The notes under the pieces are model-generated. The model worked only from the letters and a program-made list of their open reading frames with translations. It ran no database searches and had not been told where the DNA came from. Shown one piece after another: positions 1,331-42,980 of a stretch of DNA of 42,980 nt. Made by a program: the position numbers and the translations under genes. Each line of letters begins with the position of its first letter. Positions within the stretch are counted from its first letter, which is position 1. The DNA comes from a virus (taxonomy: Duplodnaviria; Heunggongvirae; Uroviricota; Caudoviricetes): IMG/VR virus record IMGVR_UViG_2778261642_000006; one strand, given 5' to 3'.

Positions 1331-1345
1331 GCTTTTTTATACTAA
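1331..1345. repeat. attL core (GCTTTTTTATACTAA)
   Basis: Exact lambda att core followed by P' arm sequence (…attataaaaaagcattgcttatcaatttgttgcaacgaacaggtcactatcag…) leading into int. Confidence 0.85.
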
Positions 1346-1418
1346 GTAGGCCTTATAAAAAAGCATTGCTTATCAATTTGTTGCAACGAACAGGTCACTA
1401 TCAGTCAAAATAAAATCA

Positions 1419-12501: not shown

Positions 12502-13874
12502 AACAGGATATCGAAGCGAGCGTTATCGGTGGCCTGCTGATTGGTGGATTAACACCAATTGCCAGTGACGTTCTGGCAACGCTTGAGCCGGAAGCGTTTT
12601 CAATTCCGCTCTACCGGAAAGCCTTCGAGGTTATCCGCAAGCAGGCGCGAAACAGAAATTTAATCGACGCGCTGATGGTTGCCGAGGCGTGCGGAGAGGA
12701 ACATTTCACGTCAATCCTGATGACCAGCAAAAACTGCCCGAGTGCCGCAAACCTGAAGGGATATGCCGGAATGGTCGCGGATAATTATCACCGCCGTCTG
12801 GTGCTGGAAATCATGGATGAAATGCGTGAACCAATTCAGAGCGGAACCATCGACGCATCGAGTCAGGCGATGGATGAACTTGTAAAGCGTCTTTCAGCCA
12901 TCAGAAAGCCCCGTGACGAGGTTAAACCTGTACGGTTAGGGGAAATCATCACTGACTACACTGACACGCTTGACAGGCGTCTGAGGAACGGAAAAGAGTC
13001 AGATACCCTGAAGACCGGAATCGAAGAACTTGACGCCATCACCGGAGGGATGAACGCAGAAGACCTGGTGATAATCGCCGCTCGTCCTGGTATGGGGAAA
13101 ACCGAGCTGGCGCTGAAGATTGCCGAAGGCGTTGCAAGCCGTGTTATTCCTGGTTCTGACGTCCGGCGCGGAGTATTGATTTTCTCGATGGAAATGAGCG
13201 CATTGCAGATTGCAGAGCGAAGCATCGCCAACGCCGGGAGGATGTCGGTTAGCGTGCTGCGAAATCCTGCATCGATGGATGACGAAGGCTGGGCGCGCGT
13301 TGCTAACGGCATGAGTCAGCTTGCAGATTTGGATGTATGGGTGGTCGATGCCTCGCGGTTATCGGTCGAAGAAATACGCTCAATCGCAGAACGGCACAAA
13401 CAGGAAAATCCAAACCTCTCACTCATCATGGCGGATTATCTTGGCCTGATTGAGAAGCCGAAAGCAGACCGCAACGACCTCGCAATTGCTCACATCTCCG
13501 GAAGCCTGAAGGCGATGGCGAAAGACCTGAAAACGCCTGTTATCTCCCTGAGTCAGCTTTCGCGCGATGTTGAGAAGCGACCAAACAAACGCCCGACAAA
13601 CGCAGATTTGCGTGATTCAGGAAGCATTGAACAGGACGCAGACTCAATCATCATGCTCTATCGGGAAGCAGTATATGACGAGAACAGTAGCGCCGCGCCA
13701 TTTGCTGAAATCATTGTGACAAAAAACCGTTTTGGCTCACTTGGTACGGTTTACCAGCGGTTCTGCAACGGACACTTTGTTGCATGTGACCAGGATGAAG
13801 CCAGACAGATTTGCACAGCATCAAATGCACCTGCTGCGCGTGGCAGACGATATGCACAAGGGGCTGACGTATGA
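12498..13874 (+). CDS. Replicative DNA helicase, DnaB-like
   Basis: 458 aa; Walker A ([12 protein letters not shown]) and DnaB-family motifs (…[17 protein letters not shown]…[13 protein letters not shown]…). Confidence 0.9.
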
Positions 13875-13900
13875 CCATCTACATCACTGAGCTAATAACA

Positions 13901-13930
13901 GGCCTGCTGGTAATCGCAGGCCTTTTTATT
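13901..13930 (+). terminator. Intrinsic terminator after the helicase (tR2-like)
   Basis: GGCCTGC-tggtaatc-GCAGGCC followed by TTTTTATTT. Confidence 0.7.
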
Positions 13931-13946
13931 TGGGGGAGAGTAAATC

Positions 13947-14153
13947 GTGGTTGAGTTGATTTTTTCTGCATTGAGGATTCTCGGTGCTATGTGGATGGTG
14001 GCGACGTTCATTGTGGTTGCCAGCAGTTTTGTCCGGCTGGTAGGCGAAGGTAAAGACCTGGTTGGTGTGCTTTTCGGTAGCATTTTCCTGTGGGTGATTA
14101 TCGGTGTTGCGCCTGTAGCTGTAGCAAAAATGGCGTGGCGTTTTGTGAGTTGA
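13947..14153 (+). CDS. Small two-helix membrane protein
   Basis: 68 aa, GTG start after GGGGGAGAG RBS; two hydrophobic segments. Confidence 0.4.
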   Translation: MVELIFSALRILGAMWMVATFIVVASSFVRLVGEGKDLVGVLFGSIFLWVIIGVAPVAVAKMAWRFVS

Positions 14154-14170
14154 ACTGAGGGTAAGTATCG

Positions 14171-14437
14171 ATGGACGAATCAAGAAAGCAGTTTGAAGAA
14201 TGGTTTAAAAACAAATATCACGTTTCAAGTGACGTGATGAAGATTATGCACATCAAGGTCGAGATTGCATGGGAGGCATGGCAGGCATCGCGAGCAGCTA
14301 TTGAAATTGAGCTGCAAAAGCCAAAGAAAGGCCCACTTCCCGGTGATTATCACATTGGCTATGACTCAGGTGCAGAATCACAATACGAAAGCGATGTAGA
14401 GGCCATCCGCGCTGCTGGGGTTAAAGTGAAGGAGTGA
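14171..14437 (+). CDS. Hypothetical protein
   Basis: 88-aa ORF in the nin region. Confidence 0.5.
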   Translation: MDESRKQFEEWFKNKYHVSSDVMKIMHIKVEIAWEAWQASRAAIEIELQKPKKGPLPGDYHIGYDSGAESQYESDVEAIRAAGVKVKE

Positions 14438-14439
14438 GT

Positions 14440-14646
14440 ATGACAAATCAGCAGCAAATAGAGTTCATCCTTGAGCAGATCCGAAAAATGCGAGAAAAGA
14501 ACCAGCCAGACATGATGGAAATATGGAGACGCCAGCAGGAAGAATACCGCAAGCATATTTTTGGTGAGAGAAAACAGGATGACTGGAGCCTATATGGCTA
14601 TGGCACCAGGACAAATAAAAACGGATATAGCCTTTACACATATTGA
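14440..14646 (+). CDS. Hypothetical protein
   Basis: 68 aa from MTNQQQIEFILEQ…; AGGAG RBS. Confidence 0.45.
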   Translation: MTNQQQIEFILEQIRKMREKNQPDMMEIWRRQQEEYRKHIFGERKQDDWSLYGYGTRTNKNGYSLYTY

Positions 14647-14654
14647 GGAATTCC

Positions 14655-15065
14655 ATGAAACAGACAATTTTCCTCAGGAGTAAGCAACAACAGCAAGCCG
14701 CAATCAACGCCATCCTCGCAACACCACTCGATAAAGACAAGCCAGTTACCATCCGCATTACTGACTACAAGCGCAACCTTGACCAGAACGCAAAATTTCA
14801 CGCGATGCTGGCGGATATCGCAAGTCAGGTTCAATGGTGCGGCAAATGGTTAAAACCAGAACAATGGAAGGTTTTGTTGATAAGCGGTCATGCAGTGGCT
14901 ACAAAGCAGGAAGCTGATGTTTTGCCCGGGCTTGAAGGCGAATACGTCAACATTCGCGAAAGCAGCGCGCAGATGAGTGTGAAGCGTATGGCAAGTCTGA
15001 TTGAGTACACGACAGCCTGGGCTATTGGTCAGGGTGTCAGATTTACCGACAGGAGGTATGAATGA
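14655..15065 (+). CDS. ninB: NinB recombination protein
   Basis: 136 aa from [11 protein letters not shown]…; …[27 protein letters not shown]… matches recalled lambda NinB pattern. Confidence 0.8.
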
Positions 15066-15238
15066 GGCGACAGCGACGAAGTTTCACCGACATCATCTGC
15101 GAAAACTGCAAATACCTTCCAACGAAACGCTCCAGAAATAAACGCAAGCCAATCCCAAAAGAATCTGACGTAAAAACCTTCAACTACACGGCTCACCTGT
15201 GGGATATCCGGTGGCTAAGACATCGTGCGAGGAAATGA
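15062..15238 (+). CDS. ninE: NinE
   Basis: Hand-translated 58 aa [58 protein letters not shown], near-identical to recalled lambda NinE; ATGA overlaps on both sides. Confidence 0.75.
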
Positions 15239-16224
15239 CGATGACTGCGTATTACAACGAAATAGATCCGTATGCAGCGCAATGGCTGCGTAACTTAATT
15301 GACGCTGGAGAAATTGCCCCCGGTTATGTAGATGAAAGGAGTATTGAAGATGTCACACCAGGTGATTTGCGAGGATTTACCCAGCACCACTTTTTTGCAG
15401 GAATCGGAGTTTGGAGCTATGCACTTAGAAAAGCAGGATGGCCAGACAACAAGAGTATCTGGACAGGAAGTTGCCCATGCCAACCTTTCAGCTCGGCAGG
15501 CAAAGGAAAAGGGGTTGATGACGAGCGGCACTTATGGCCGGCATTCTTCTGGCTTATTGAAAAATGCAATCCTGGCATCGTTATTGGCGAACAGGTTGCA
15601 AGCGCAGACGGCCTCGCTTGGCTCGACCTTGTACAAACTGACTTGGAAGGTGCGAACTACACCTCTGCAGGTACCGATATTTGCGCTGCGGGCTTCGGTT
15701 CTCCGCACATCAGGCAGCGATTGTATTGGGTGGCCTACTCCAACGACAAATATCAACTTTCAGCCAGAGACGCGCAGGGGAATTCAGAACCTATCTGGAT
15801 GCGTGAGACTAGCGGGATGGCAAACTCCTTTAGCGAACGATGCAACAGGTTCAACGCATTGCTACAGCGGAAAAGACAAGAGCGGAACCCCAAGAATCTG
15901 CTTGAAACTTCCCGGGACGGTGAAGCTATGTACCCATTACCGGTTAACGGCTTCTGGAGAGATGCAGACTGGCTTTACTGTAGAGATGAAAAATATCGTC
16001 CAGTTAGACCCGGCTCATTCCCGATGGTTAATGGCATTGCCAAAAGCTTGGGACGAGGCAAGTCCACACTGGGAAGAATGGCAAAGCGCAATCAAGATCA
16101 GCGAATTATTGGATATGGAAACGCAATCAATGCAGAAGTAGCAACGGCATTCGTGAAAGTTTGTATGGAGGTTGTTAATGCTTATCCCATCCCAATCCAT
16201 TCAATACCAGAAAGAAAGCGTTGA
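15235..16224 (+). CDS. DNA (cytosine-5)-methyltransferase, orphan
   Basis: Motif [12 protein letters not shown], catalytic PCQ ([16 protein letters not shown]), ENV-like region; no restriction endonuclease partner seen. Confidence 0.85.
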
Positions 16225-16354
16225 GCGGGCTTTAACGTGCGCTAACTGCGGTCAGAAGCTGCATGTGCTGGAAGTTCACGTGTGCTCCGATTGCTGCGCA
16301 GAACTGATGAGCGATCCGAATAGCTCGATGCACGAGGAAGAAGACGATGGCTAA
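16178..16354 (+). CDS. ninF: NinF
   Basis: 58 aa [66 protein letters not shown]; matches recalled lambda NinF. Confidence 0.75.
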   Translation: MLIPSQSIQYQKESVERALTCANCGQKLHVLEVHVCSDCCAELMSDPNSSMHEEEDDG

Positions 16355-22706: not shown

Positions 22707-23129
22707 ATGGCGACTGAACCAAAAGCTGGTCGCCCCTCTGATTATATGCCGGAGGTGGCTGACGATATCTGCTCGTTGCTTTCTTCTGGCGAGAGCTTGC
22801 TGAAAGTATGCAGGCGCCCAGGTATGCCGGATAAGTCCACTGTTTTCCGCTGGTTGGCAAAGCATGAGGATTTTCGCGACAAGTACGCGAAGGCAACTGA
22901 GGCACGAGCTGATTCTATTTTCGAAGAGATATTCGAAATTGCTGACAATGCGATTCCAGATGCTGCTGAGGTGGCAAAGGCAAGACTTCGCGTTGATACC
23001 CGCAAATGGGCGCTGGCCAGAATGAATCCCCGTAAGTATGGCGACAAGGTAACTAACGAGCTTGTCGGTAAGGACGGCGGCGCAATCCAGATTGAAACAT
23101 CACCGATGAGTACTCTATTCGGAAAATGA
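22707..23129 (+). CDS. Terminase small subunit
   Basis: 140 aa from MATEPKAGRPSDYMPEVADDICSLLSSGESLLKVCRRPGMPDKSTVFRWL… (HTH-like); directly upstream of large terminase with overlapping stop/start. Confidence 0.7.
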   Translation: MATEPKAGRPSDYMPEVADDICSLLSSGESLLKVCRRPGMPDKSTVFRWLAKHEDFRDKYAKATEARADSIFEEIFEIADNAIPDAAEVAKARLRVDTRKWALARMNPRKYGDKVTNELVGKDGGAIQIETSPMSTLFGK

Positions 23130-24541
23130 CCTCGATTAATCCTATCTTTGAACCGTTCATTGAGGCGCATCGCTACAAAGTCGCCAAAGGCGGTCGAGGT
23201 AGCGGTAAGTCATGGGCAATTGCGAGGCTGCTTGTTGAAGCGGCGCGTCGGCAGCCAGTGCGTATTCTCTGCGCTCGTGAACTGCAAAACAGTATCAGCG
23301 ATTCGGTAATCAGGTTACTTGAAGATACCATCGAGCGGGAAGGGTATTCGGCTGAGTTTGAAATTCAGCGTTCCATGATTCGTCATCTCGGAACGAATGC
23401 TGAATTCATGTTCTACGGCATCAAAAACAACCCGACGAAGATTAAATCGCTCGAAGGCATTGATATCTGCTGGGTGGAAGAAGCGGAAGCGGTAACGAAG
23501 GAATCATGGGATATCCTGATACCAACCATCCGCAAGCCATTTTCCGAAATATGGGTGAGCTTTAACCCGAAAAACATCCTCGACGATACCTATCAGCGAT
23601 TCGTCGTAAATCCTCCAGATGATATTTGCCTGCTGACGGTGAACTACACCGACAACCCGCACTTTCCTGAAGTTCTCCGTCTGGAGATGGAAGAGTGTAA
23701 ACGCAGAAATCCGACCCTGTATCGTCACATCTGGCTTGGTGAGCCAGTGAGCGCAAGTGATATGGCAATCATCAAACGTGAATGGCTTGAAGCCGCAACC
23801 GATGCGCACAAGAAACTAGGATGGAAAGCGAAAGGCGCTGTTGTTTCTGCACATGACCCGTCAGATACAGGGCCGGATGCTAAAGGTTATGCATCGCGTC
23901 ACGGTTCGGTTGTTAAGCGCATTGCCGAAGGTCTGCTGATGGACATCAACGAGGGTGCTGACTGGGCTACTTCGCTGGCGATTGAAGACGGCGCTGACCA
24001 TTACCTGTGGGATGGTGATGGTGTTGGTGCCGGGCTACGCAGACAGACAACGGAAGCGTTCTCCGGCAAGAAAATCACCGCCACGATGTTCAAGGGCAGC
24101 GAATCGCCATTCGATGAAGATGCACCGTATCAGGCCGGAGCATGGGCTGATGAAGTCGTACAGGGCGACAACGTTCGCACTATTGGCGATGTATTCCGCA
24201 ATAAGCGAGCGTAATTCTATTACGCGCTGGCTGACAGGCTGTATCTGACATATCGGGCGGTTGTTCACGGTGAGTATGCAGACCCAGACGACATGCTGAG
24301 TTTCGACAAAGAAGCGATAGGCGAGAAGATGCTGGAGAAGCTGTTTGCAGAACTGACGCAGATTCAGCGCAAATTCAATAACAACGGGAAGCTGGAGCTT
24401 ATGACTAAGGTCGAAATGAAGCAGAAGCTCGGTATTCCATCTCCTAACCTGGCTGATGCACTGATGATGTGTATGCATTGCCCGGAGTCGGCTGCGCAAC
24501 CCGACTATTCCAGTTACTCAATTCCTTGTGGTGTAGGTTGA
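23126..24541 (+). pseudogene. Terminase large subunit interrupted by in-frame TAA at 24212..24214
   Basis: Walker A VAKGGRGSGKS; 362-aa ORF ends at TAA, and the same frame continues without frameshift (FYYALADRLYLTYRAVVHGEYADPDDMLSFDKEAIG…) to 24541, 2 nt before the portal start. Confidence 0.7.
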
Positions 24542-32977: not shown

Positions 32978-34314
32978 TGGCTTATAGTATTGGCAGCCCA
33001 TTAAATCTGATGTCATTAGTTCCTGACTTCAGACTGGAAGGATTGAAAGAAGCTCAAACCTTTGCCACGACACAGCAAGGTATAGCGCAGGGAATAGATA
33101 ACCAGCGGGCTATTCGACAGGATGCCAGACAGCAGGAATTCTATAAAGCTATGAATGAAACTCCTCCTGAACAAATAGCTTCTCTGCGTAGAAAATTCCC
33201 TGAGTTTACTCAGGCTATACAACAGGAGTTAGGTATTCAGAGTGCTGAGCATTCAGCATTTGTTAATTCAGCTTTAAATAAAATATCAATTGCTGCATCT
33301 ACAGGAAATCCAAATGAAATTGCAAATGCTCTGAATAGCAACAGCGCAGCATTATTAAGTCTTGGTGTGAGTAAGGATGATGCATGGCAGCTTTATCAAC
33401 AGGATCCGGCCAGGTTTAATAGTCTGTTAAATGCTAGCCGCCTTGCCACTCTGCCTATGGATAAACAGTTTGATGTGCAGCATCAACGCGATCAGCTTAA
33501 TGAGACAATCCGCAGCAATAAAGCTGGGGAAGGTTTACAGGCGCAAAGCATTGCTGTTAGCCGTGAAAACTCCCTGCGCACTGCTGGAGGTGCTGTTCCT
33601 GCATCTGTTAAAGAATATCAATATTTCAACAGCCTGTCTCCAGAGCAACAAAAGACATATCTTCGTGTTCGAGGCCGTCCTGATGCTGGCGGGGAGAATG
33701 TTGTGCAACTGGCAGATGGCAGAACGGTAACGGTTGGTAAGAAGCTTCACGGCGCTGGTGCTAACGCGTTCTACGAAGGAATAGACAACGAGGGCAATAT
33801 GATTCGCGTCCCCGCCAGTTCTATTGCTGCTCCGGCTACATCGGCAGCTAATGCGCAGAATTACGAAATGAAGAAAGATCTTGATGCAATTTCTGGCGCA
33901 TCAATTGACGATCTTGGCTTCATGACAGGTATTACAGGTTCTTCAGGTTCTTTTGCTCTTGGTGCAGATATTCGTAGCCGGGCATCTGGTGTTGAGGAGA
34001 GGAGGCTATACAACGCTGCACAGCGAATCATGGGCAAAATGCAAAATCAGGGGATTGCAGCAGCCCGAGATATGGGGGCATCTGGCATCAACACCGAAGC
34101 AGAGGCTAATAGGTATTTTCAGGGTATGCCAAAGCCTGATTTCTCAAGTCCTGAAGCGCTGCAACAATCAATGCGCGACATTCAGCAATATACCGACAAT
34201 TACAACCAGCAATATAACGTTAATGTTGGTAAATCTCAGCGGCAGCAATCTCAACCTACACAGGTATCACAGCCAGCAGCCAGCAGTAACTTTTCTTCAC
34301 TATGGGGTGATTAA
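32977..34314 (+). CDS. Ejection (internal virion) protein, gp20 position
   Basis: 445 aa, Gln/Ala/Ser-rich; size and order as P22 gp20. Confidence 0.6.
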
Positions 34315-36482
34315 TGGCTAAAGCATGGAAAGATGTTATCGCCTCTCCACAGTATCAGGCGTTAACTGAAGAACAGAAAGCACAGGCTCAAGCGCAATAT
34401 TTTGATGAGGTTGTTGCCCCTAAGGCTGGTGACAAATGGGCTGAAGCAAGAGATCAGTTTTATGCAGCATACCCTCCGCCTCAGCAGCAGAAAGAAGAAC
34501 CATCATTGATGCAACAAGCTGGTGATTGGCTCACAGGCGGTCAAAGTGCAGGGCAAATTGCAGAGCAGGCTGGTCGTGGTCTGGTAAACATACCATTTGA
34601 CGTATTGCAGGGTGGCGCAAGTCTGATTAATGCAATCAGTCAGGGGCTTGGTGGGCCCAAGGTTTTGGATGATGTCTATCGTCCAGTCGATCGACCGACA
34701 GACCCTTACGCGCAAGCCGGTGAAACAATTGGTGGGTATCTCCTGCCAATTGGCACAGCGGCAAAAGCTGCTGGAGCGCCAGCAAAGCTCGCTGGAGATA
34801 TCAGTTCCGCAGGAAACATGATTGCAGGTTCTCTTGCTGATGCTGCAAATCAGGAGGGTGATTTTGCACAAAATGCTGCCATTAACGGTGGTATCAATAT
34901 TGGTGCTCAAGGCGTTCTTTCAGGTGTCGGGCGCGTTATTGCGCCAAGGGTTTCACAGGCTCTTGGTGGTGCAGCACTGAATTCTGCTAATGATGTTTCG
35001 AAAATGGCAAAGTCAGGTACAGGAAGAGAGATTATTGCCAGACAGTCAGCTAACGTGTCAGACGAAATAGCAAAAGCAGCAGATACTGCTGGAATAGATA
35101 TCAACGCATTAACTCCTGGCATGAGATCAGGTAGTCGTGGTCTTGCTCAGGCGGAGGGGATTCTGGCGTCAAAGCCCGGAATTACACAGGATGCACACAC
35201 CAAAGCATTCAGTGAAATAGAGTCGAAATTTAACTCAGCATTGGATGAGTTTGGGGCTGAAGCAGGAACTGCATCAGAAAAAAGTGCAGCCATAAAACAG
35301 AGGGTTTTGGCAAGCATTGATAAAATGAAAAATTCAGAAAAGGCCGCATGGGATAGCGTCCGCTCCACGATGCCTGACGCAAAGGCCAGAATGTCAAACC
35401 TGAACGCTACAATTCAGGGTGATATTTTGGCTGGCATGCCGCTAACTCCTGAGATGAAACAATTCGCATCTGCTTATGCTAAAACTGGTAAAAAAGGAAT
35501 CACGTTTGATGCCATGAAGGCATGGCGAAGTAAACTTGCTGACGCAGAGCAGAAGTATATAAGGTCTGGTGAGGCAAATACGGCAAGGCGCATGGCTGAG
35601 CTTCGTGATGCAGCAACGGAAGATATGCGCATAATGGCTCAAAATGGCGGTTTTCTTGATGACTGGCAAAAAGCTAATGACCTGTCAAAGGCAAGATTTA
35701 CAGCACAAGAACAGGCTGAAGCAGCGTTTGGCAGAGACCTTGCAACTGATCAGTTGGTAAATAATGGCTCTAAGGCGTTACAGGGCTCAGCAAAAAGTGG
35801 AACAGGTCAGTTCCATAAAATAATAAGCGCCCTACCTGAGTCGGAACGCGCGCCAGCAATTGCATCAATATTACAAGATGCAATGTCGCAAGGGGTACGC
35901 GGAGGTAAGTCTGAAGAGGCTGGAATTAAGCATATCGCGACTATTCTTACCCCACAAAACGTGAAGGCAATTAGTCGATATTCTCCAGAACTTGGCAGGA
36001 TTACAAGTTCATACGGAGAACTTGCAAGAGCAGCAACAAAGCCACTTCGATATGTTGAACAGACAGGGCGATCTATGCCAGCCATTAGCACTCTTGAGAA
36101 TGGCCTTCATCCAGTTTTAGAGAGCGCATTGTCTGGCGCTTTTAGAACTACTGGCACTATCGCAGGGTTCTCTGGAGGAGGCGTTATTGGAGCAATAGCG
36201 GGTGGCGCTGCAGGTGGAGCAATTGATGCAATGGCAAAAGGAGCGATAGCGAAATTATCCGCAACTAGAAGCGGTCGTTACGCTATTGAAAAGGCTGTTC
36301 AAGAGGCAACAAAGGCAGTTAAGGTTGGGGCAAGTGATGGTGCATTAGCGGCGGCGGAACGCAGATTTATGGCAAATAAGGCCGCCGTAAAAGCAATACG
36401 CGAGGCACTAGGAAACGAAGAGTTCCAGCGTTTAGCAAGGGCTGGAATTGTGGCATCGCTAAGCGGAATGGCACAGGAGTAA
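34314..36482 (+). CDS. Ejection (internal virion) protein, gp16 position
   Basis: 722 aa, Ala/Gly-rich with Gly-rich C-terminal segment; order as P22 gp16. Confidence 0.6.
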
Positions 36483-36812
36483 TTAGTCATCCATGGATGG
36501 ATTGAGCTTATCTCGTGTTGATGTGGCAATTTTCCCAACATTTTTCAACCAAGATTTTAAGAAGGATATGTCGTCCTTAATATCATGAATATCCTCATTC
36601 TTTATACGATCAACCTTATCCTCTAGGCTCTCTATAGAACGCTCAATGCTAGACAGAGAGATTTTTAAGTCTCCTTGATCACGTTCCAGTGAGGATTTGA
36701 GAGCACAATATTCGTTTTCTAGAATTCCTATTTTTTTTGTTAGAGAGTGCATTCGATACTCATACACCAAACCAGAAACGACTAATGCAGCCAACAGAAA
36801 CCATTCAAGCAC
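36483..36812 (-). CDS. Hypothetical membrane-anchored coiled-coil protein (sieA-position accessory gene)
   Basis: 109 aa from GTG with AAGGAGG RBS 5 nt upstream; N-terminal hydrophobic helix (LEWFLLAALVVSGLVYEY) then heptad-rich region. Confidence 0.5.
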   Translation of the reverse strand: MLEWFLLAALVVSGLVYEYRMHSLTKKIGILENEYCALKSSLERDQGDLKISLSSIERSIESLEDKVDRIKNEDIHDIKDDISFLKSWLKNVGKIATSTRDKLNPSMDD

Positions 36813-36842
36813 ACCAACCTCCTTAGTTTTGCGCAGGATACC

Positions 36843-37208
36843 ATGAAAAAAGTTAACATTGGAAACGTACCAAAGATGCTCGTTCCGCTCTTTGAGAGCG
36901 GTACAATTGTGTTTTGTAGAGACTTTCCAGAATGGCAACGCCTGCATCAAAAACTTGGCGTTGACGTGCATGACTCGGACGCCAACGGAGCGTCTCATAC
37001 AATGAGTAGCGAGAATGGTGTTTTGCATGTGATAGGCGTGTTCAATGGCAAACTATCTACTATTGCCCATGAGTGCGCTCACATGGCATTCGATATCTGC
37101 TCAAGGGTAGGTGTTGATGTTGAACCAGGAAGAGCCAACGAGACTTACTGCTACTTAATGAGCAGGCTTGTTGAGTTCTGCGAGCGACATATCAAAAAGC
37201 CGGAGTGA
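36843..37208 (+). CDS. Hypothetical protein with HEXXH zinc-metallopeptidase-like motif
   Basis: 121 aa; …STIAHECAHMAFDI…; divergent from the membrane gene with only ~30 bp between starts. Confidence 0.5.
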   Translation: MKKVNIGNVPKMLVPLFESGTIVFCRDFPEWQRLHQKLGVDVHDSDANGASHTMSSENGVLHVIGVFNGKLSTIAHECAHMAFDICSRVGVDVEPGRANETYCYLMSRLVEFCERHIKKPE

Positions 37209-37221
37209 CCCGGCTTGATTA

Positions 37222-37401
37222 TTACTTTTTGCTGTCTGGAGTTCGCTTATCCAATACCCAGCCATGACCTGGCTTTGTTGTTGGTGGAAGCCTTTCGTTG
37301 TCCTTGACGGTTGCAAAATTGTCTTTCTTACCGCCGCGTGGGCCAACTTCTTGGTATATTCCGCCGTTTTTTCCTGTGTTTTCACCTGGTTTTTTCGCCA
37401 T
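37222..37401 (-). CDS. Small YjzC-like protein
   Basis: 59 aa MAKKPGENTGKNGGIYQEVGPRGG…; GAGGT RBS; Gly/Pro/Lys-rich pattern recalled for YjzC-family proteins. Confidence 0.45.
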   Translation of the reverse strand: MAKKPGENTGKNGGIYQEVGPRGGKKDNFATVKDNERLPPTTKPGHGWVLDKRTPDSKK

Positions 37402-37500
37402 GATATACCTCAACATACACCCGTTATTGGGCGATTAAATATTGATCTCATTTTATAAGTAGTCAATATGGCCCAGGTAAATGCAAAAATTAACCCACCT

Positions 37501-37752
37501 TCAGGTGGGTTTTTTGTACAAATCCTTCAGCGTATCAAACACCATCTTCTTAACAAGCTCTGACTGCTCATCAGCGATGCGTTCCGCATCGTCTCGATAG
37601 CCTGAAATTTTGGATGGCTTTGATACAGCATCAGTCACTATCTGAACTAATTCTGAATTAAGAGAGCGACCATTGGATTTGGCTCGCTGTTTTAGTTTTT
37701 CCTTTAATTCGTAAGGTAGCCGCAGATTAAATTGCGGGTCATCTCTTCCCAT
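37501..37752 (-). CDS. mnt: Mnt repressor (ribbon-helix-helix, P22 immI)
   Basis: 83 aa MGRDDPQFNLRLPYELKEKLKQRAKSNGRSLNSELVQIVTDAVSKPSKISGYRDDAERIADEQSELVKKMVFDTLKDLYKKPT, closely matching recalled P22 Mnt. Confidence 0.9.
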   Translation of the reverse strand: MGRDDPQFNLRLPYELKEKLKQRAKSNGRSLNSELVQIVTDAVSKPSKISGYRDDAERIADEQSELVKKMVFDTLKDLYKKPT

Positions 37753-37815
37753 TCTTGATGCCTCGCTTTTGTGAGTGGATCGGCATCTTATTATCTGCTG
37801 GTTGCATCCTCAATA

Positions 37816-37830
37816 AGACCACAGTGGTCT
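37816..37830. promoter_or_regulatory. Putative Mnt operator (AGACCAC-A-GTGGTCT palindrome)
   Basis: Perfect 15-bp inverted repeat between mnt and the tailspike start, where P22 has Omnt/Pant. Confidence 0.55.
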
Positions 37831-37898
37831 CTTTGTTTGATTAATAATGCATCACTGTGGCAATGCTGCGGCGATTCCTTGTATCTGGAGCAAATTAA

Positions 37899-40550
37899 AT
37901 GACAGACATTACAGCCAATGTTGTAGTGAGTATGCCTTCGCAACTCTTCACTATGGCGCGTTCTTTTAAAGCCGTAGCCAATGGCAAAATTTATATCGGT
38001 AAAATTGACACTGACCCGGTAAATCCTGAAAACCGGATTCAGGTTTATGTGGAGAACGAAGACGGCTCTCACGTTCCTGTATCGCAGCCAATCATCATTA
38101 ACGCTGCCGGATATCCTGTATATAACGGACAGATTGCCAAATTCGTTACTGTACAGGGCCATTCTATGGCTGTTTATGATGCGTATGGTTCGCAGCAGTT
38201 CTATTTTCCAAACATTCTGAAATATGATCCTGATCAGTTTAAACAAGAACTAGAGAATAAATTTAACAATGGTTCAACTCCATCAATTATAAATTATAAG
38301 TACGGTCTTCCAGAAGAAGTAGACGGAGCAACACAAAGGACGCTACAGGATAAACTTGATGACCATGTAAATGTTCGCGATTTTGGTGCAAAAGGGGATG
38401 GCATTACTGACGATACAGACGCAATAACAAGTGCCATCATTTACTGCGCATCTAACGGAAAACGCCTGAAGTGGGATTCTGGTGTGTATTTGATTAGCCG
38501 CATAAAATGCGGCGGGGATAATTATAACTATGACTGGGTAGCTGATGGCAAGGTTGTCTTAAAGTCAACCGCAAAAGAGCCTCTTGGCCCAAACTGGATT
38601 GATGATTATTTCATAAGACTCGAAGGTGGAGATGCCACGCCAATTGACTATAATTCAACAATAAATCCTGGTGACACATCAATATCAATTAACTCAGCAT
38701 ACTCTGTTGATGCAGGCGATATAATTATGATTCATGGCAATCGCTTAATTCAGACAGATAATAGAGGACAGGCTTGTGAAGGTGAAATGCATGTTGTTAC
38801 TGCTTTTGATAATGCAACAAAAAAAGCGGAGATATCAGGTGCATTTTATTTTTTCTACTCTGCGAGCAATGATTACTCAACGACCGTAACAGCATCTGTA
38901 TCCGGAGGTGAATTCTCATTTGGTAATGATGCAACATTAACAAAACAATACAATCAGGTAAAAGTAACAGGTGTCACCGGAGCTAACGCCGGAACATCAA
39001 GATACATAACTCATTGGGATTACGACACTAAAACAGCAAAATTTGAATATGCTCAGGGACCATTCCCGTTTAAACCATCTGTTGGAGACGTGTTTAAAAT
39101 CACAAGAAAGGCAAATATATATAAAAGAAAACCATGCTACGGCAGAATTGTTGGTGATTTCAATTTTGAAAGACCTGTCACGCAGAACGCATCTCCTGGT
39201 GATTTGGGGTTCCGTGGTCTTGTGATAGATGGCGCTGTTGATATGCATATAGAAGGAATAAAACTAATCGGCTTTTCAGAAACTGGAATTTTTCTTGAGT
39301 CATGCTACAGAACGAAAATAATAGAACCATATATTGAATACTCAAACCGTGCATATGATTTAACAAACGGCACTGGTTATGGTGTTGAAATATACAATAG
39401 CAGCTATTGCACAGTCGTGGATATGATAGCATTTGCTTGCAGGAGGGGGCTTGATGTAAGCGGGACTCAAATGGTATCACTGTATAATAACATTATAAAT
39501 CCAACGATGATGGGTGGTGGAACTGCATATGATGGAGTTAAATTTTTCCCTGATGGCGATACAAGAAATTCATGTTGCGGTGGACACGGCCCATCATACG
39601 AAACAACTTTTACAGGCGGCAATTCAGTCAATTTGTATTATGCTGGTGTAATACGCGGATTAAATGAAGTGTATGATGGAATGAACGCCAGGGGATTTAG
39701 CGGCCCGGCTCCTTTTTTTGTAAGATATAGTGGTGGTGGGTTCACGATTCAGAACTGTAATTATATTGATGGTTTTACTGAGATGTCTTTGCCATACAAC
39801 TTGAGGTACAAACCTGTGAATGCAACTCAACGTAATCACAGACCTCTTGTTTTTATTGAAACAACTCTGGCACAGACAGACAGAAACTCTTACTATAAAG
39901 AACTTCCTGTTGTTATTAAAAATAATACCGCAAGGACTGTTCTCAAGGGCTTTTTACGTTTTGAGGTTAATGATGGCCTCACCCCTCTAATCCAAAATAT
40001 TTATTTTGGTGGTAATTTATGTATGGCGAACCCAGAAACATCAGACTCTGTATCAGGGCAAACAGAGGCAGTAATGGTTTATTCATCTGTTCCTGGTGCA
40101 ATAATTGTTCGAAATTTCCATGATCTTGGCGGTAACAGAATTGTTCCTGTTGGAGCAGGATACAGATACTGCGGTATGTTCAACACGCCAGATGGAATAG
40201 CAGGAACAATAGTTCAACCAGACGGAAAATATCTAATAACACTTGAAGCCAACAAATCTACAAGTATCCTTGTTGGTGGATACGTACCATGTGTTCGCCT
40301 TGATATGCACGACATACTTGATATTCATGGGGTAATTGCAGTTGGTGTTCTTATTCATCGTGGTGAGGCAATTGATTTTTCTCCTTTAAAAGAAATTAAT
40401 AAGCAAAATGTTGTATTGAAAACCGGAGTTCTTTCAGATAATGATGGTGATGAAAATAACTTAAATATTTCGTTTGACTTTGCAACCATATATTTAAGCA
40501 ACAAGATGCCAAATAAGATTCAACTATCTATTGAAGTATCAGGAGTGTAA
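37899..40550 (+). CDS. Tailspike protein: P22-type head-binding domain plus long divergent beta-helix receptor-binding domain
   Basis: N-terminus [59 protein letters not shown]… matches recalled P22 gp9 N-terminus; 883 aa total. Confidence 0.9.
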
Positions 40551-40586
40551 TTGTATCAATTTGCTAAATTAAAAAAGGATAAAAAT

Positions 40587-40874
40587 ATGGATACAACACC
40601 AATAACACATGCAGTATGCGCGGTTATTGCGCAGATACTGGTTGGCCTTTCTACCGGAAACTGGGCTTACGGTGCGATAGCCGGTTGTACGTTCTTCATT
40701 GCGCGTGAACACACCCAGGCAGAATATCGCTGGATAGAAAAGTTTGGGAAAGGGAAACGCATCAACATGCCGTGGTGGGGAGGTTTTGATCCACGCGTGT
40801 GGGATGTGGGAAGTCTGTTGGATTTTTCTTTCCCAATTATCGGATGCTTATTGGTATGGATTCTTGCATCGTAG
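40587..40874 (+). CDS. Hypothetical small membrane protein downstream of tailspike
   Basis: 95 aa from MDTTPITHAVCAVIAQILVGLSTGNWAYGAIAGCTFFIA…; AAGGA RBS; two hydrophobic segments. Confidence 0.45.
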   Translation: MDTTPITHAVCAVIAQILVGLSTGNWAYGAIAGCTFFIAREHTQAEYRWIEKFGKGKRINMPWWGGFDPRVWDVGSLLDFSFPIIGCLLVWILAS

Positions 40875-41264: not shown

Positions 41265-41741
41265 TTAACTAAACATCGCAGTAATCGAGGCACTCGCCAG
41301 AGAGTGAAAATGAACGTTAAACCCGACCATCGCGCCGCTGGCACCTTCATCGACATCAATACGTTCTACATCCAGCGCGTGAACGGTAAAAATGTAGCGA
41401 TGGGTTTCGCCTTTCGGCGGCGCTGCGCCATCGTACCCGGTTTTACCAAAGTCGGTACGCGTCTGCAAAACGCCGTCTGGCATAGCTACCAGACCAGAGC
41501 CAAACCCTTGCGGTAATACGCGGGTATCAGCGGGTAAATTAACAACTACCCAGTGCCACCAGCCGGAGCCGGTTGGCGCATCCGGGTCATAGCAGGTGAC
41601 AACAAAACTTTTCGTTCCCACAGGAACATCATCCCACGCCAGATGCGGTGAAATATTATCGCCATCGTAACCCATGCCGTTAAAGACATGACGATGCGGC
41701 AGCTTATCGCCATCGCGCAGATCGTTACTGATGAGTTTCAT
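41265..41741 (-). CDS. ybhB: Host PEBP/UPF0098-family protein YbhB-like
   Basis: 158 aa; PEBP-like motifs (…CYDPDAPTGSGWWHWVVVNLP…); recalled as the gene on the bio side of attB-lambda. Confidence 0.85.
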   Translation of the reverse strand: MKLISNDLRDGDKLPHRHVFNGMGYDGDNISPHLAWDDVPVGTKSFVVTCYDPDAPTGSGWWHWVVVNLPADTRVLPQGFGSGLVAMPDGVLQTRTDFGKTGYDGAAPPKGETHRYIFTVHALDVERIDVDEGASGAMVGFNVHFHSLASASITAMFS

Positions 41742-41849
41742 TAGAATGCCTCCGGGAAACCTCGGCCTTCAGACCGGGGAGGAAAGGAGGCGGTTTTCCG
41801 ACTAACTGTACTTTGCATAATCACATTTTCCTCTTTAGTATGTGAACAC

Positions 41850-42980
41850 ATGAAACGCGCATATAAATACCGGTTTTACCCGACAACTGAGCAGGCTGAG
41901 CTTTTAGCTCAGACGTTTGGCTGTGTGCGCTTCGTCTACAATTCCATCCTTCGTTGGCGTACCGATGCGTACTACGAGCGAAAAGAAAAGATCGGTTATC
42001 TACAGGCCAACGCTCGCCTTACGGCGCTCAAAAAAGAGCCTGAATACATATGGCTGAATGATGTTTCCTGCGTTCCCCTCCAGCAGTCGTTGCGCCACCA
42101 ACAAGCCGCCTTTGCTAACTTCTTTGCCGGACGAGCTGCATATCCGGCTTTCAAAAGCAAACGGCACAAACAGGTGGCTGAGTTCACTGCCAGCGCGTTT
42201 AAACACCGTGACGGCGAGTTGTATATAGCAAAGAGCAAGTCGCCGCTGGATGTTCGCTGGAGTCGAGAATTACCATCTGCGCCGTCAACCGTTACCATTT
42301 CCAGAGATAGCGCTGGCAGGTACTTTGTTTCCTGCCTGTGTGAGTTTGAACCTGTATCAATGCCTGTTACCGCTAAAACGGTCGGCATTGATGTGGGCTT
42401 AAAAGATTTATTCGTCACCGATACCGGATTCAAAACCGACAATCCCCGCCACACCGCTAAATATGCGAAGCGATTAACGCTGCTACAGCGACGTTTAAGC
42501 AGGAAGCAAAAAGGCTCAAGAAACCGTATTAAAGCCCGCTTAAAGGTCGCCCGACTCCACGCGAAAATCGCCGATTGCCGGATGGACAATCTGCACAAGT
42601 TGTCCCGCAAACTGATTAACGAAAACCAAGTTGTTTGCGTCGAATCCCTCAAGGTGAAAAACATGATCCGCAACCCGAAGCTGTCTAAAGCAATAGCTGA
42701 CGCAGGCTGGAGCGAACTTGTTCGCCAGCTCCAGTACAAAGGCAAATGGGCCGGGCGGTCAGTGGTCGCCATTGACCAGTATTTACCGTCCTCAAAATGC
42801 TGTAGTTGCTGCGGTTTCACCATGCAAAAAATGCCTCTTAATGTTCGTAAATGGCACTGCCCTGAATGCGGCGCAGACCATGATCGCGACATTAACGCGG
42901 CACGTAATATTAAAGCTGCCGGGCTGGCAGTGTTAGCCCACGGAGAGCCTGTAAACCCTGAATCGCAGCACGCGGCTTAG
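41850..42980 (+). CDS. tnpB: IS200/IS605-family TnpB (OrfB) RuvC-like nuclease
   Basis: 376 aa; N-terminus MKRAYKYRFYPTTEQ; RuvC-like motifs (GIDVGLKDLFV, …DHDRDINAARNI) and zinc finger (CCSCCG…CPECG); stop codon is the last 3 nt of the window. Confidence 0.85.
   Translation: MKRAYKYRFYPTTEQAELLAQTFGCVRFVYNSILRWRTDAYYERKEKIGYLQANARLTALKKEPEYIWLNDVSCVPLQQSLRHQQAAFANFFAGRAAYPAFKSKRHKQVAEFTASAFKHRDGELYIAKSKSPLDVRWSRELPSAPSTVTISRDSAGRYFVSCLCEFEPVSMPVTAKTVGIDVGLKDLFVTDTGFKTDNPRHTAKYAKRLTLLQRRLSRKQKGSRNRIKARLKVARLHAKIADCRMDNLHKLSRKLINENQVVCVESLKVKNMIRNPKLSKAIADAGWSELVRQLQYKGKWAGRSVVAIDQYLPSSKCCSCCGFTMQKMPLNVRKWHCPECGADHDRDINAARNIKAAGLAVLAHGEPVNPESQHAA

What the first reader, a model, noticed from the sequence alone, without database searches (positions are those of the whole stretch)
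36483..37416. Three-gene accessory island at the P22 sieA position
Between the last ejection-protein gene and mnt lie a divergent pair (membrane-anchored coiled-coil protein on minus; HEXXH-motif protein on plus, starts ~30 bp apart) and a YjzC-like minus-strand gene. P22-like phages keep superinfection-exclusion genes (sieA) here. A membrane protein paired with a putative metallopeptidase is a plausible exclusion or defence module that I cannot match to a described system.
Basis: inference. Interest (0 to 1): 0.65.

Follow-up and report, generated by a model that had tools for sequence, protein, structure and literature searches.

The report
HK620-type hkcB–hkcC–orf59a prophage accessory genes
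These three small genes are the already catalogued but functionally unstudied hkcB, hkcC and hkcD/orf59a genes of an HK620-like (P22-like) E. coli prophage; the membrane protein is one of many swappable cargoes in the superinfection-exclusion slot, and the small zinc-protease-like gene is linked to the tiny gene downstream of it, not to the membrane protein.

Summary
Three real genes lie between ejection gene 16 and mnt: hkcB (minus, 36483-36812, 109 aa, not the 181-aa mechanical ORF), hkcC (plus, 36843-37208, HECAH) and orf59a/hkcD (minus, 37222-37401, YjzC family). The stretch is 97% identical to phage HK620, and P22 itself carries hkcC and orf59a next to sieA. The locus is therefore already described, with function listed as unknown.

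The proposed membrane-protein-plus-protease module is not supported. Among 80 loci with near-identical hkcC, the slot 30 nt upstream holds at least 12 unrelated small cargoes, including sieA, and nearly all are envelope proteins. hkcB relatives also occur without hkcC. Published work shows sieA works with only 85 upstream bp, and that stretch differs at 1 of 85 positions here.

Two results appear to be new.
- HkcC belongs to a large family with no Pfam model (546 clusters). Only H-E-x-x-H and a Glu 20 residues downstream are invariant, which fits a minimal gluzincin.
- hkcC and orf59a form a recurrent convergent pair, 13-23 nt between stops, with a shared hairpin. orf59a has its own conserved promoter. 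The pair is inserted in unrelated phage backbones.

My working model, which is inferred, is that orf59a acts in the lysogen and HkcC is a late-expressed protease that opposes it.

Interest is low to moderate.

The parts
34314..36482 (+). Gene 16-type ejection (DNA transfer) protein, HK620 type, 722 aa. This is context. Its stop codon abuts the hkcB stop codon with no intergenic base.
   Evidence: ORF; HK620 annotation 'DNA transfer protein, gene 16'. hkcB lies next to this gp16 type in 8 of 8 loci.
36483..36812 (-). hkcB, 109 aa. It has an N-terminal hydrophobic anchor (residues 2-17), an acidic coiled-coil-like region, and a conserved C-terminal ~45 aa. It is the cargo in the sieA slot.
   Evidence: GTG start with AAGGAGG Shine-Dalgarno. 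PHROG 5962 E 1e-60 over residues 73-181 of the long ORF. HK620 hkcB. Homologues always abut gene 16. No similarity to SieA.
36813..36897 (-). The 85 bp upstream of hkcB, made of a 30-nt spacer with the Shine-Dalgarno sequence plus the first 55 nt of hkcC. It corresponds to the P22 segment that carries the putative PsieA promoter.
   Evidence: 1 of 85 mismatches to P22. The P22-pbi record annotates PsieA here. The 85 bp plus the sieA ORF are sufficient for exclusion in single copy (PMC10883804). The simple sigma-70 scan found no site here.
36843..37208 (+). hkcC, 121 aa, a cytoplasmic minimal zincin-like protein on the late-operon strand.
   Evidence: PHROG 1365 E 2e-39. 100% identical proteins are widespread. 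Family of 546 clusters. AF2 pLDDT 89.
37068..37082 (+). Codons for H76-E77-C78-A79-H80 (the HEXXH motif), located in predicted helix 71-88.
   Evidence: H76, E77 and H80 are invariant in 116 relatives at 23-45% identity. Helix.
37140..37142 (+). Codon for E100, the candidate third zinc ligand, 20 residues after H80 and at the start of helix 100-116 (motif N-E-T).
   Evidence: Invariant in 116 relatives. Helix.
37197..37216 (.). GC-rich hairpin between the convergent hkcC and orf59a genes. It acts as a bidirectional terminator.
   Evidence: Found on both strands. HK620 annotates 'bidirectional terminator tORF59A'. Conserved in other backbones.
37222..37401 (-). orf59a / hkcD, 59 aa, pI 9.9, YjzC family, predicted three-stranded beta meander.
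   Evidence: 98% identical to P22 orf59a. PHROG 3202 E 1e-31. YjzC relatives. AF2 pLDDT 88.
37438..37466 (-). Sigma-70-like promoter for orf59a (TTGACT-17-AATATT).
   Evidence: An equivalent site was found by the scan upstream of orf59a in L004, L006 and L011. The -35 TCAA/TTGA and -10 AAATATT columns are invariant in a 7-locus alignment.
37492..37511 (.). Hairpin just outside the orf59a promoter. It overlaps the mnt stop codon and corresponds to the mnt terminator.
   Evidence: HK620 annotates 'tMNT'. Analogous hairpins lie outside the promoter in L006 and L093.
37501..37752 (-). mnt repressor (context). No arc or ant follows it.
   Evidence: Pfam Arc and Repressor_Mnt. ORF list.

Best explanation
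The region is the left arm of the immI / 'ant moron' region of an HK620-like (P22-like, Lederbergvirus) prophage. The prophage sits in the E. coli chromosome at the lambda attachment site. The region is not one system but two independently assorting units.

Unit 1 is a cargo slot. A fixed expression region (PsieA and a strong Shine-Dalgarno sequence, partly inside the 5' end of hkcC) drives whichever small gene sits between it and gene 16. In P22 that gene is sieA. Here it is hkcB, a protein with one N-terminal membrane anchor and an acidic coiled-coil body. By the positive-inside rule the body is probably cytoplasmic. I infer that hkcB is made in the lysogen. Like most cargoes of this slot, it probably acts at the cell envelope against incoming phage or other mobile DNA.

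Unit 2 is a convergent gene pair that moves as a block.
- hkcC encodes a 121-aa cytoplasmic minimal zinc metallopeptidase of the HEXXH...E (gluzincin-like) kind. It lies on the late-operon strand.
- orf59a encodes a very conserved 59-aa basic YjzC-family beta protein. It has its own sigma-70 promoter and hairpins on both sides, and lies antisense to the late operon.

My working model for unit 2 is inferred, not shown. Orf59a is produced in the lysogen. On induction, antiterminated late transcription runs antisense through orf59a, which silences it, and also makes HkcC. HkcC then removes Orf59a or undoes its effect.
For: Identity of the locus:
- 97% identity to HK620 over hkcB, hkcC and hkcD.
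- P22 carries hkcC, orf59a and mnt at 97.5% identity.
- The window is flanked by ybhC-like and ybhB-like genes and has a lambda-type integrase.

Unit 1 (cargo slot):
- Homology with P22 breaks at the shared GTG start codon.
- The upstream 85 bp differ at 1 of 85 positions. That segment plus sieA gives >=10^7-fold exclusion in single copy (PMC10883804).
- In 80 loci with >=99% identical HkcC, the slot holds at least 12 unrelated cargoes. Eleven have a lipobox, signal peptide or transmembrane segment.
- hkcB relatives always abut gene 16. In K. aerogenes and Salmonella they lie on the mnt strand and, in K. aerogenes, directly downstream of mnt.

Unit 2, HkcC as a zincin:
- H76, E77, H80 and E100 are the only invariant residues in 116 relatives.
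- The AF2 topology is beta-beta-alpha-beta-beta, then the HEXXH helix, then the Glu helix.
- All weak PDB sequence hits with E <= 1 are metallopeptidases; myroilysin is the best at E 0.015.

Unit 2, the pairing:
- The same convergent hkcC/orf59a pair occurs in siphovirus-type prophages of Klebsiella and Rosenbergiella, and in Xenorhabdus, Proteus, Morganella, Pasteurellaceae and metagenomic contigs.
- All 81 co-occurrences are convergent, with 13-23 nt between stop codons.
- In a tree of 40 non-redundant family members, 13 of 15 outside one derived clade are paired.
- The pairing persists down to 14-19% HkcC identity.

Unit 2, separate expression:
- The orf59a promoter is conserved in 7 backbones.
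- hkcC is co-oriented with the flanking late structural genes in the P22-like and siphovirus-type loci where such genes were identified.
Against: - No expression or phenotype data exist for any of the three genes. Literature searches returned only 'unknown function'.
- The pairing is not obligate. 10 of 80 close relatives have another small membrane gene in place of orf59a. A 25-member clade of HkcC relatives (ST64T Orf129-like, next to terminase genes) lacks orf59a. orf59a occurs alone in a Salmonella bongori prophage and in environmental Pseudomonadota.
- Physical linkage through the shared terminator could explain co-travel without any functional link.
- The simple promoter scan did not find PsieA.
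- An AF2 test of an HkcC-Orf59a complex could not be run.
- hkcB has no similarity to any known exclusion or defence protein.
Confidence: 0.6

Rival explanations
1. hkcB (membrane protein) and hkcC (metallopeptidase) are a divergently transcribed two-component exclusion or defence module, for example a membrane sensor plus a protease effector.
For: The two genes are divergent, with starts 30 nt apart. They sit at the sieA position. HkcC has a conserved zincin signature.
Against: The same hkcC is paired with at least 12 unrelated cargoes, including sieA. sieA works with only 18 codons of hkcC present. hkcB relatives occur in prophages without hkcC. hkcC occurs in siphovirus prophages with no divergent membrane gene. 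No PADLOC model matches HkcC or Orf59a, and HkcB has only two marginal, coiled-coil-type matches.
Confidence: 0.04
2. HkcC is an ImmA/IrrE/CapP-like regulatory protease that cleaves a repressor (Mnt, Arc, C2 or a host regulator). It would be part of the immI antirepressor circuitry.
Confidence: 0.08
3. HkcC and Orf59a are a toxin/antidote-type pair. HkcC is a potentially harmful protease, and Orf59a is its small inhibitor, made constitutively in the lysogen to neutralise leaky HkcC.
For: The pairing is recurrent and tight. Orf59a is far more conserved than HkcC. Orf59a has its own promoter.
Against: The genes are convergent, not co-transcribed, unlike type II toxin-antitoxin pairs. Orf59a homologues occur alone, where an inhibitor would have nothing to inhibit. 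27 of 40 non-redundant HkcC relatives lack it. No PADLOC or toxin-antitoxin family hit was found.
Confidence: 0.12
4. There is no functional link. hkcC and orf59a are two unrelated accessory genes that travel together only because they share one terminator and are short. HkcC is a late-expressed protease with a host or phage substrate (anti-defence, or SprT-like removal of DNA-bound proteins), and Orf59a is an independent lysogenic-conversion factor.
For: Both genes occur alone. 2 of 116 relatives weakly hit SprT-like (E 1e-4). Some longer relatives carry basic C-terminal tails. The Mantel correlation is only r = 0.42, p about 0.04.
Against: The pairing survives in at least 12 different backbones and down to 14-19% HkcC identity, always with the same 13-23 nt geometry. 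That is more persistent than expected for neutral hitch-hiking in mosaic phage genomes.
Confidence: 0.2
5. hkcC is not a functional protein gene here. The ORF is kept only because its 5' end carries the promoter for the cargo slot.
For: PsieA lies inside the first codons of hkcC. The P22-pbi record does not annotate the ORF at all.
Against: The family has 546 clusters, with H-E-x-x-H...E invariant at 23-45% identity. It has a confident fold. It occurs in backbones that have no divergent cargo slot.
Confidence: 0.01

Closest known systems
Phage HK620 genes hkcB, hkcC and hkcD, and phage P22 genes hkcC and orf59a
   Same: The window is 97% identical in DNA to HK620 over all three genes, and 97.5% identical to P22 over hkcC and orf59a. 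Gene order, strands, the terminator hairpin and the start codons are the same.
   Different: The differences are in the surroundings. This prophage keeps an intact ST160-type mnt, where HK620 has only an mnt remnant. It lacks arc and ant, which P22 has. It carries a different tailspike.
P22 SieA superinfection exclusion protein (Leavitt et al. 2024, PMC10883804)
   Same: hkcB occupies the same slot between gene 16 and gene 9. It uses the same start-codon position, Shine-Dalgarno sequence and 85-bp upstream promoter region (1 mismatch). It is membrane-anchored.
   Different: There is no sequence similarity. hkcB has one hydrophobic segment, whereas SieA is described as having several predicted transmembrane helices. 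The FxRYPxEAxxFNK motif is absent. hkcB is 109 aa against 164. Its function is untested. hkcB sits next to HK620-type gp16 (8 of 8 loci), the ejection-protein type that partly escapes SieA.
Minimal gluzincins and other small zincins (minigluzincins, Wss1/SprT-like; PDB 3e11 'zincin-like metalloprotease')
   Same: A single domain of about 110-120 aa. HEXXH lies in a helix preceded by a beta sheet, and the third ligand lies on the next helix. The 20-residue spacing from the second His to the Glu equals that of thermolysin (my own knowledge).; family context from PMC4559962.
ImmA/IrrE/CapP regulatory metalloproteases (Peptidase_M78, COG2856)
   Different: There is no PF06114 hit. HkcC is not in an operon with an HTH target. 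It is about half the size and has a different genomic logic.
Morons of lambdoid phages (promoter-gene-terminator units inserted in late operons, such as lambda bor/lom and HK97 gp15)
   Same: orf59a has its own conserved promoter and flanking hairpins. It lies antisense within a late operon and is inserted between different gene pairs in different phages.
   Different: It usually travels with a co-oriented late-strand partner gene (hkcC), which is not part of the classical moron picture.

Membership tests
SieA superinfection exclusion proteins (types A/B/C) | Sequence homology, including the cytoplasmic motif FxRYPxEAxxFNK | tested here: not met
   BLASTP of HkcB against P22 SieA gave no alignment at E <= 100. 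The motif, as described in PMC10883804, is absent from the HkcB sequence.
SieA superinfection exclusion proteins (types A/B/C) | Inner membrane protein with several predicted transmembrane helices | tested here: not met
   HkcB has one hydrophobic segment (residues 2-17, Kyte-Doolittle 2.16) and is otherwise highly charged.
SieA superinfection exclusion proteins (types A/B/C) | Gene located between the homologues of genes 16 and 9 of a P22-like prophage, expressed from PsieA | tested here: met
   Position. The start codon and upstream 85 bp are shared with P22 sieA, with 1 mismatch. Promoter function itself was not tested here.
SieA superinfection exclusion proteins (types A/B/C) | Blocks DNA injection by P22-like phages | not testable with these tools
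   This needs plating and DNA-entry assays.
Zincin / gluzincin metallopeptidases (HkcC) | HEXXH motif in an alpha helix, conserved across the family | tested here: met
   H76, E77 and H80 are invariant in 116 relatives and lie in predicted helix 71-88.
Zincin / gluzincin metallopeptidases (HkcC) | Third zinc ligand Glu on the following helix, about 20 or more residues after the second His | tested here: met
   E100 is invariant, 20 residues after H80, at the start of helix 100-116. That it binds metal is inferred.
Zincin / gluzincin metallopeptidases (HkcC) | Fold similarity to solved zincins | tested here: inconclusive
Zincin / gluzincin metallopeptidases (HkcC) | Zinc-dependent peptidase activity | not testable with these tools
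   This needs biochemistry.
ImmA/IrrE (Peptidase_M78, PF06114) | Match to the family HMM | tested here: not met
   No hit at E <= 1 for HkcC. None of 116 relatives hits at E <= 0.01.
ImmA/IrrE (Peptidase_M78, PF06114) | Encoded next to, and usually co-transcribed with, its HTH repressor substrate | tested here: not met
   The neighbours are a variable cargo gene (divergent) and orf59a (convergent). In siphovirus backbones the neighbours are tail genes.
SprT-like / Wss1 minigluzincins (PF10263) | Match to the family HMM | tested here: not met
   No hit for HkcC. Only 2 of 116 relatives hit, best E 1e-4.
YjzC family (PF14168), for Orf59a | Match to the family HMM at the gathering score | tested here: inconclusive
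   19.1 bits against a cut-off of 25, E 0.0017. However, relatives at 47-54% identity carry PF14168, closer ones are named 'YjzC family protein' by their sources, and the G-x-Y-x-E-x-G-P-R-G-G and L-P-P-T motifs align throughout.
Known anti-phage defence systems (PADLOC-DB 2.0) | Match of any of the three proteins to a defence-system model | tested here: not met
   HkcC and Orf59a have no hits. HkcB has only coiled-coil-type marginal hits (DpdH E 0.002, PbeC E 0.006).
Type II toxin-antitoxin pair (HkcC + Orf59a) | Two genes co-transcribed in one operon | tested here: not met
   The genes are convergent in all 81 co-occurrences, with a hairpin between them.
Moron (autonomous promoter-gene-terminator unit in a phage late operon), for orf59a | Own promoter and terminator, inserted between different gene pairs in different phages | tested here: met
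   The promoter-like site is conserved in 7 backbones. Hairpins lie on both sides. Insertion sites differ: gene 16 / tailspike in some phages, tail chaperone / tape measure in others. Expression was not tested.

The most novel reading that the evidence does not exclude
hkcC and orf59a may be a previously unrecognised two-phase module of temperate phages. In this reading the highly conserved YjzC-family mini-protein is a lysogen-expressed effector, acting in defence or host modulation. The minimal gluzincin, made only with the late genes, is its dedicated eraser. Convergent antiterminated transcription would switch the effector's gene off at the same time. If so, the HkcC family (546 clusters, no Pfam model) would be a new class of small phage proteases. 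The adjacent slot, with at least 12 unrelated envelope cargoes behind one fixed promoter, would be a ready-made catalogue of untested exclusion proteins. hkcB would be the one associated with SieA-insensitive HK620-type gp16.
Probability: 0.2. Interest if true: 0.65.

Novelty: already known. Interest (0 to 1): 0.33.

Why it matters
As a genome feature this is ordinary. It is a textbook mosaic accessory region of P22-like prophages, present in about 5% of complete E. coli genomes and annotated everywhere as hypothetical proteins.

It matters in three modest ways.
- The analysis corrects a tempting but wrong pairing of the membrane protein with the protease.
- It gives the first functional handle on two genes that P22, one of the best-studied phages, has carried unexplained for over 20 years. 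One is a minimal HEXXH...E zincin family. The other is a YjzC-type mini-protein that is its habitual convergent partner.
- It shows that the sieA slot is a plug-in site with a constant promoter and ribosome-binding site and many unrelated envelope cargoes. That makes a compact, directly testable panel of candidate injection-blocking proteins. Each can be cloned with the same 85 bp already shown to work for sieA.

Tried and rejected
- Curated libraries gave no family for HkcB or HkcC. This covers Pfam, NCBIfam and PADLOC. PHROGs gave only 'unknown function' families.
- Profile searches against PDB sequences found nothing with the close alignment. With the broad one they gave only marginal metzincin hits.
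- Foldseek against PDB gave no meaningful match for HkcC.
- The afdb50 library was unavailable.
- hhalign of the HkcC family against the neighbouring PF18894 PhageMetallopep protein found only the HEXXH helix (probability 3%), so the two are not related.
- Ten longer family members carry no extra Pfam domain. The six whose sequences were read have low-complexity, mostly basic C-terminal tails.
- The search for related loci with the very diverse alignment A3 failed because no stretch was conserved enough.
- Literature searches for hkcC, hkcB, orf59a and YjzC found no functional study.
- I considered and rejected hkcB as a spanin- or holin-like lysis protein. The weak XhlA and Rz1 hits are coiled-coil noise, and the gene is not in the lysis cassette.
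- I also rejected the idea that hkcC is only a promoter-bearing pseudo-ORF.
Full report
**What is at the coordinates**

The window carries a P22-like prophage in an E. coli chromosome. At the left end are a YbhC-like pectinesterase-family gene (1-1284) and a lambda-type integrase (1419-2489). At the right end, after the tailspike, are a YbhB-like PEBP-family gene (41265-41741) and an IS605-family TnpB. From my own knowledge, this ybhC/ybhB junction is the lambda attachment site.

The order between the last ejection-protein gene and the tailspike is as follows:
- gene-16-type protein, 34314-36482 (+)
- a minus-strand ORF ending at 36483
- a plus-strand 121-aa ORF, 36843-37208
- a minus-strand small ORF, 37222-37416
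- mnt, 37501-37752 (-)
- tailspike, from 37899 (+)

First, the minus ORF is mechanically 181 aa, but PHROG 5962 aligns only to residues 73-181 (E 1e-60). HK620 annotates 109 aa, and a GTG at 36812 follows an AAGGAGG Shine-Dalgarno sequence. The gene is therefore 36483-36812 and starts 30 nt from the hkcC ATG. Second, the small minus ORF most likely starts at the ATG at 37401 (59 aa), because a GAGG lies between the two in-frame ATGs and P22 orf59a is 59 aa.

**The locus is already catalogued**

Megablast against phage genomes gives 97% identity to HK620 across the island. There the genes are named hkcB, hkcC and 'may encode HkcD; similar to P22', with a 'bidirectional terminator tORF59A' between the last two.

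P22 itself matches window 36810-37599 at 97.5%. So P22 has hkcC, orf59a and the C-terminal part of mnt next to sieA. The epsilon34 genome paper calls this region the 'ant moron'. It lists hkcC and 59a as genes of unknown function and notes an hkcB homologue in epsilon34 (PMC2629481). A 2016 genome paper lists hkcC as 'Unknown' (PMC4837284).

In complete E. coli genomes, 275 of 5426 carry part of the island and 33 carry all of it. In the records listed, the three genes are annotated as 'hypothetical protein'. No paper in the searchable library addresses the function of hkcB, hkcC, orf59a or YjzC.

**hkcB is a cargo of the sieA slot, not a partner of hkcC**

A three-way DNA alignment of the window, P22 and HK620 shows that window/P22 similarity begins exactly at the shared GTG start codon. 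Downstream of it, sieA and hkcB are unrelated. Upstream, the Shine-Dalgarno sequence, the spacer and hkcC are nearly identical.

The 85 bp upstream of hkcB differ from those upstream of P22 sieA at one position. [quoted passage not shown] Two things follow. SieA needs no intact hkcC. And hkcB sits behind a promoter region that is functional in a lysogen-like, single-copy setting. That hkcB is expressed is an inference.

I then collected 80 viral contigs whose HkcC is >=99% identical and read the minus-strand ORF starting upstream of hkcC. It starts 30 nt upstream in nearly all loci and 34 nt upstream in the lipoprotein class. The slot holds at least 12 unrelated cargo classes:
- SieA, 164 aa (13 loci)
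- HkcB (8 loci)
- a lipoprotein with an LLAGC lipobox, 161 aa (18 loci)
- a signal-peptide protein, 129 aa (12 loci)
- a second, unrelated TM-plus-coiled-coil protein, also 109 aa (6 loci; no BLASTP similarity to HkcB)
- a two-TM 75-aa protein (8 loci)
- several other small proteins with a transmembrane segment or signal peptide
- one 140-aa soluble protein

Eleven of the twelve are predicted envelope proteins.

hkcB relatives are a narrow enterobacterial family whose conserved part is the C-terminal ~45 residues. They always abut the gene 16 stop codon. In a Klebsiella aerogenes prophage and a Salmonella prophage they occur without hkcC and on the mnt strand; in K. aerogenes they follow mnt and two further ORFs directly.

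HkcB shows no similarity to SieA and has no significant match to a PADLOC defence model. Its N-terminus (M-L-E) carries no positive charge, while R, K and K follow the hydrophobic segment. By the positive-inside rule the coiled-coil body is probably cytoplasmic; this is an inference.

hkcB lies next to HK620-type gp16 in 8 of 8 loci, and sieA lies next to P22-type gp16 in 13 of 13. This may be plain linkage. It is notable because HK620 ejection proteins partly escape SieA (PMC10883804).

**HkcC is a minimal zincin**

The curated libraries give nothing for HkcC. A word-indexed search found only 32 close relatives. An exhaustive HMMER search with their alignment found 546 clusters (at 50% identity) with E <= 1e-3. 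Nearly all are standalone proteins of 110-130 aa.

In an alignment of 116 of them, at 23-45% identity to the window protein, the only invariant residues are H76, E77, H80 and E100. G49 and Y104 are nearly invariant. HEXXH followed 20 residues later by a Glu in an N-E motif is the gluzincin pattern; from my own knowledge, the spacing equals that of thermolysin.

AlphaFold2 gives a confident model (pLDDT 89, pTM 0.83). It has strands 11-13 and 21-25, helix 28-37, strands 49-56 and 59-66, helix 71-88 carrying HEXXH, and helix 100-116 starting at E100. This is the zincin layout.

Structure searches are weak:
- Foldseek found nothing.
- A family profile against PDB sequences gives only metallopeptidases at E <= 1: myroilysin at E 0.015, BMP1 and tolloid-like astacins at about 0.11, and a peptidyl-Lys metalloendopeptidase at 0.58.

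There is no Peptidase_M78 hit, no SprT-like hit for HkcC, and only 2 of 116 relatives touch SprT-like. Longer relatives add only low-complexity, mostly basic tails. I conclude that HkcC works like a small gluzincin but belongs to no described family.

**hkcC's habitual partner is orf59a**

Look-ups of HkcC relatives at 43-63% identity show the same picture each time: hkcC followed by a convergent 59-aa gene. The loci were siphovirus-type prophages of Klebsiella oxytoca and Rosenbergiella, a JGI metagenomic phage and short Logan contigs. In the longer siphovirus-type contigs, the pair lies between tail-chaperone-region genes and the tape-measure gene, with hkcC on the late strand. The 59-aa proteins are 76-78% identical to the window's.

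A scan of one genome per species adds Xenorhabdus, Proteus and a Pasteurellaceae genome. Morganella P22-like prophages also keep the arrangement mnt, orf59a, convergent hkcC and variable cargo. Across all loci fetched, all 81 co-occurrences are convergent, with 13-23 nt between stop codons.

The pairing is not obligate:
- In 10 of 80 close relatives, orf59a is replaced by a small membrane protein, with the break right at the hairpin.
- A large subfamily, including Orf129 of ST160 (annotated as similar to ST64T orf129), lies between the lysis genes and the terminase and has no orf59a.
- orf59a homologues occur alone in a Salmonella bongori prophage and in environmental Pseudomonadota.

In a neighbour-joining tree of 40 non-redundant family members, the unpaired proteins form essentially one derived clade of 25. 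Of the 15 outside it, 13 are paired. Among paired loci, HkcC identity runs from 14% to 66% while Orf59a stays at 48-98%. Distance matrices correlate weakly (r = 0.42, Mantel p about 0.04).

Orf59a belongs to the YjzC family and is basic (pI 9.9). It is predicted with confidence as a three-stranded beta meander with no informative structural neighbour.

**Expression logic**

This part is inferred from sequence. orf59a has a sigma-70-like promoter (TTGACT-17-AATATT, 37466 to 37438 on the minus strand). The scan found an equivalent site at the same relative position in three other backbones, and its -35 and -10 cores are invariant in a seven-locus alignment. Hairpins lie on both sides: 37197-37216 is shared with hkcC, and 37492-37511 is just outside the promoter. 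This is the anatomy of a moron.

hkcC has no conserved promoter of its own. It is co-oriented with the surrounding late genes wherever those were identified. In the Klebsiella prophage it is even preceded by a terminator-like hairpin. It is therefore most simply expressed by antiterminated late transcription, which would also run antisense through orf59a. The epsilon34 paper treats this region as part of the late operon.

**Mechanism I commit to**

Unit 1: hkcB is a lysogen-expressed, membrane-tethered protein in the exclusion slot. Its most likely role is envelope-level interference with incoming phage. I put this at about 0.5, on positional and cargo-class evidence only.

Unit 2: HkcC is a late-phase zinc peptidase and Orf59a a lysogen-phase effector. 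HkcC counteracts Orf59a or its effect at the switch to lytic growth. I put a functional link of some kind at about 0.45 and this particular direction at about 0.2-0.25.

The direction is preferred over 'Orf59a inhibits HkcC' because Orf59a occurs alone in non-phage settings, where an inhibitor would have no target. Hitch-hiking through the shared terminator remains a serious rival.

**Verdict**

The locus is already known as HK620 hkcB-hkcC-hkcD, with unknown function. Interest is low to moderate. It rests on the uncharacterised zincin family, its convergent YjzC-type partner, and the plug-in slot with many envelope cargoes.

Noticed in passing
window 1-2489 and 41265-42980: The window is a prophage in an E. 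coli chromosome. A YbhC-like pectinesterase-family gene and a lambda-type integrase lie at the left. A YbhB-like PEBP-family gene lies at the right. This looks like the lambda attachment site. An IS605-family TnpB (OrfB_IS605 plus a Cas12f-like TNB domain) starts at 41850 and runs off the window.
   Followed up: partly
window 37501-37898: mnt is present, but arc and ant are absent. Only about 146 bp separate mnt from the tailspike. The C-terminal third of mnt is 97.5% identical to P22, but the N-terminal DNA-binding part diverges. The best match through this part is the ST160/SE1 group at 91%. This is an orphan Mnt with no antirepressor to control.
   Followed up: partly
window 37899-40874: The tailspike is 883 aa. 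It has the P22 head-binding domain followed by a pectate-lyase-like body, and it is longer than the HK620 spike. A 107-aa ORF with no Pfam hit follows it directly (40551-40874).
   Followed up: no
window 36697-36725: The best sigma-70-like match in the region (TTGAGA-17-TAGAAT, 10 of 12) lies on the plus strand inside hkcB, about 118 nt upstream of hkcC. It is specific to this cargo and so cannot be the general hkcC promoter. It could give hkcC some lysogenic expression, and antisense RNA to hkcB, in this prophage.
   Followed up: no
L013-L092 (IMG/VR loci), slot upstream of hkcC: There are at least 12 unrelated small cargoes behind the same promoter and Shine-Dalgarno sequence. They include a 161-aa lipoprotein (18 loci), a 129-aa secreted protein (12 loci) and a 75-aa two-TM protein (8 loci). 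None has a known function.
   Followed up: partly
L281 (Salmonella phage ST160, record 22883-23272) and L202-L280: Many phage contigs in this set carry an HkcC-family member without orf59a. In phage ST160, which also carries the immI-region hkcC, this is a second paralogue ('Orf129', annotated as similar to ST64T orf129, SE1 orf49 and ST104 orf47) between the lysis cassette and the small terminase subunit. The window has no such second copy.
   Followed up: partly
L104-L108 (Morganella morganii P22-like prophages): In these prophages the cargo slot holds one to three genes. In L108 one of them hits Pfam Rap1a (from memory, a type VI secretion immunity family).
   Followed up: no
L007/L008 and L096: An unrelated 212-aa PF18894 'PhageMetallopep' HEXXH protein sits just downstream of the hkcC-family gene. 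In the Logan contigs orf59a lies between them; in Kluyvera it does not. hhalign shows no relationship beyond the HEXXH helix.
   Followed up: partly
L109-L111 (Salmonella bongori prophage): Here orf59a stands alone near the lysis genes. Close by are a GmrSD_N protein and a HEPN (RiboL-PSP/MAE_28990) protein, which looks like a defence islet.
   Followed up: no
L004 (Klebsiella oxytoca prophage) 12241-16256: Downstream of the tape-measure gene this siphovirus-type prophage carries a SNIPE/T5orf172 nuclease-like gene, an Arc/Arc/P22-antirepressor (immI-like) module and a SocA_Panacea-domain gene.
   Followed up: no
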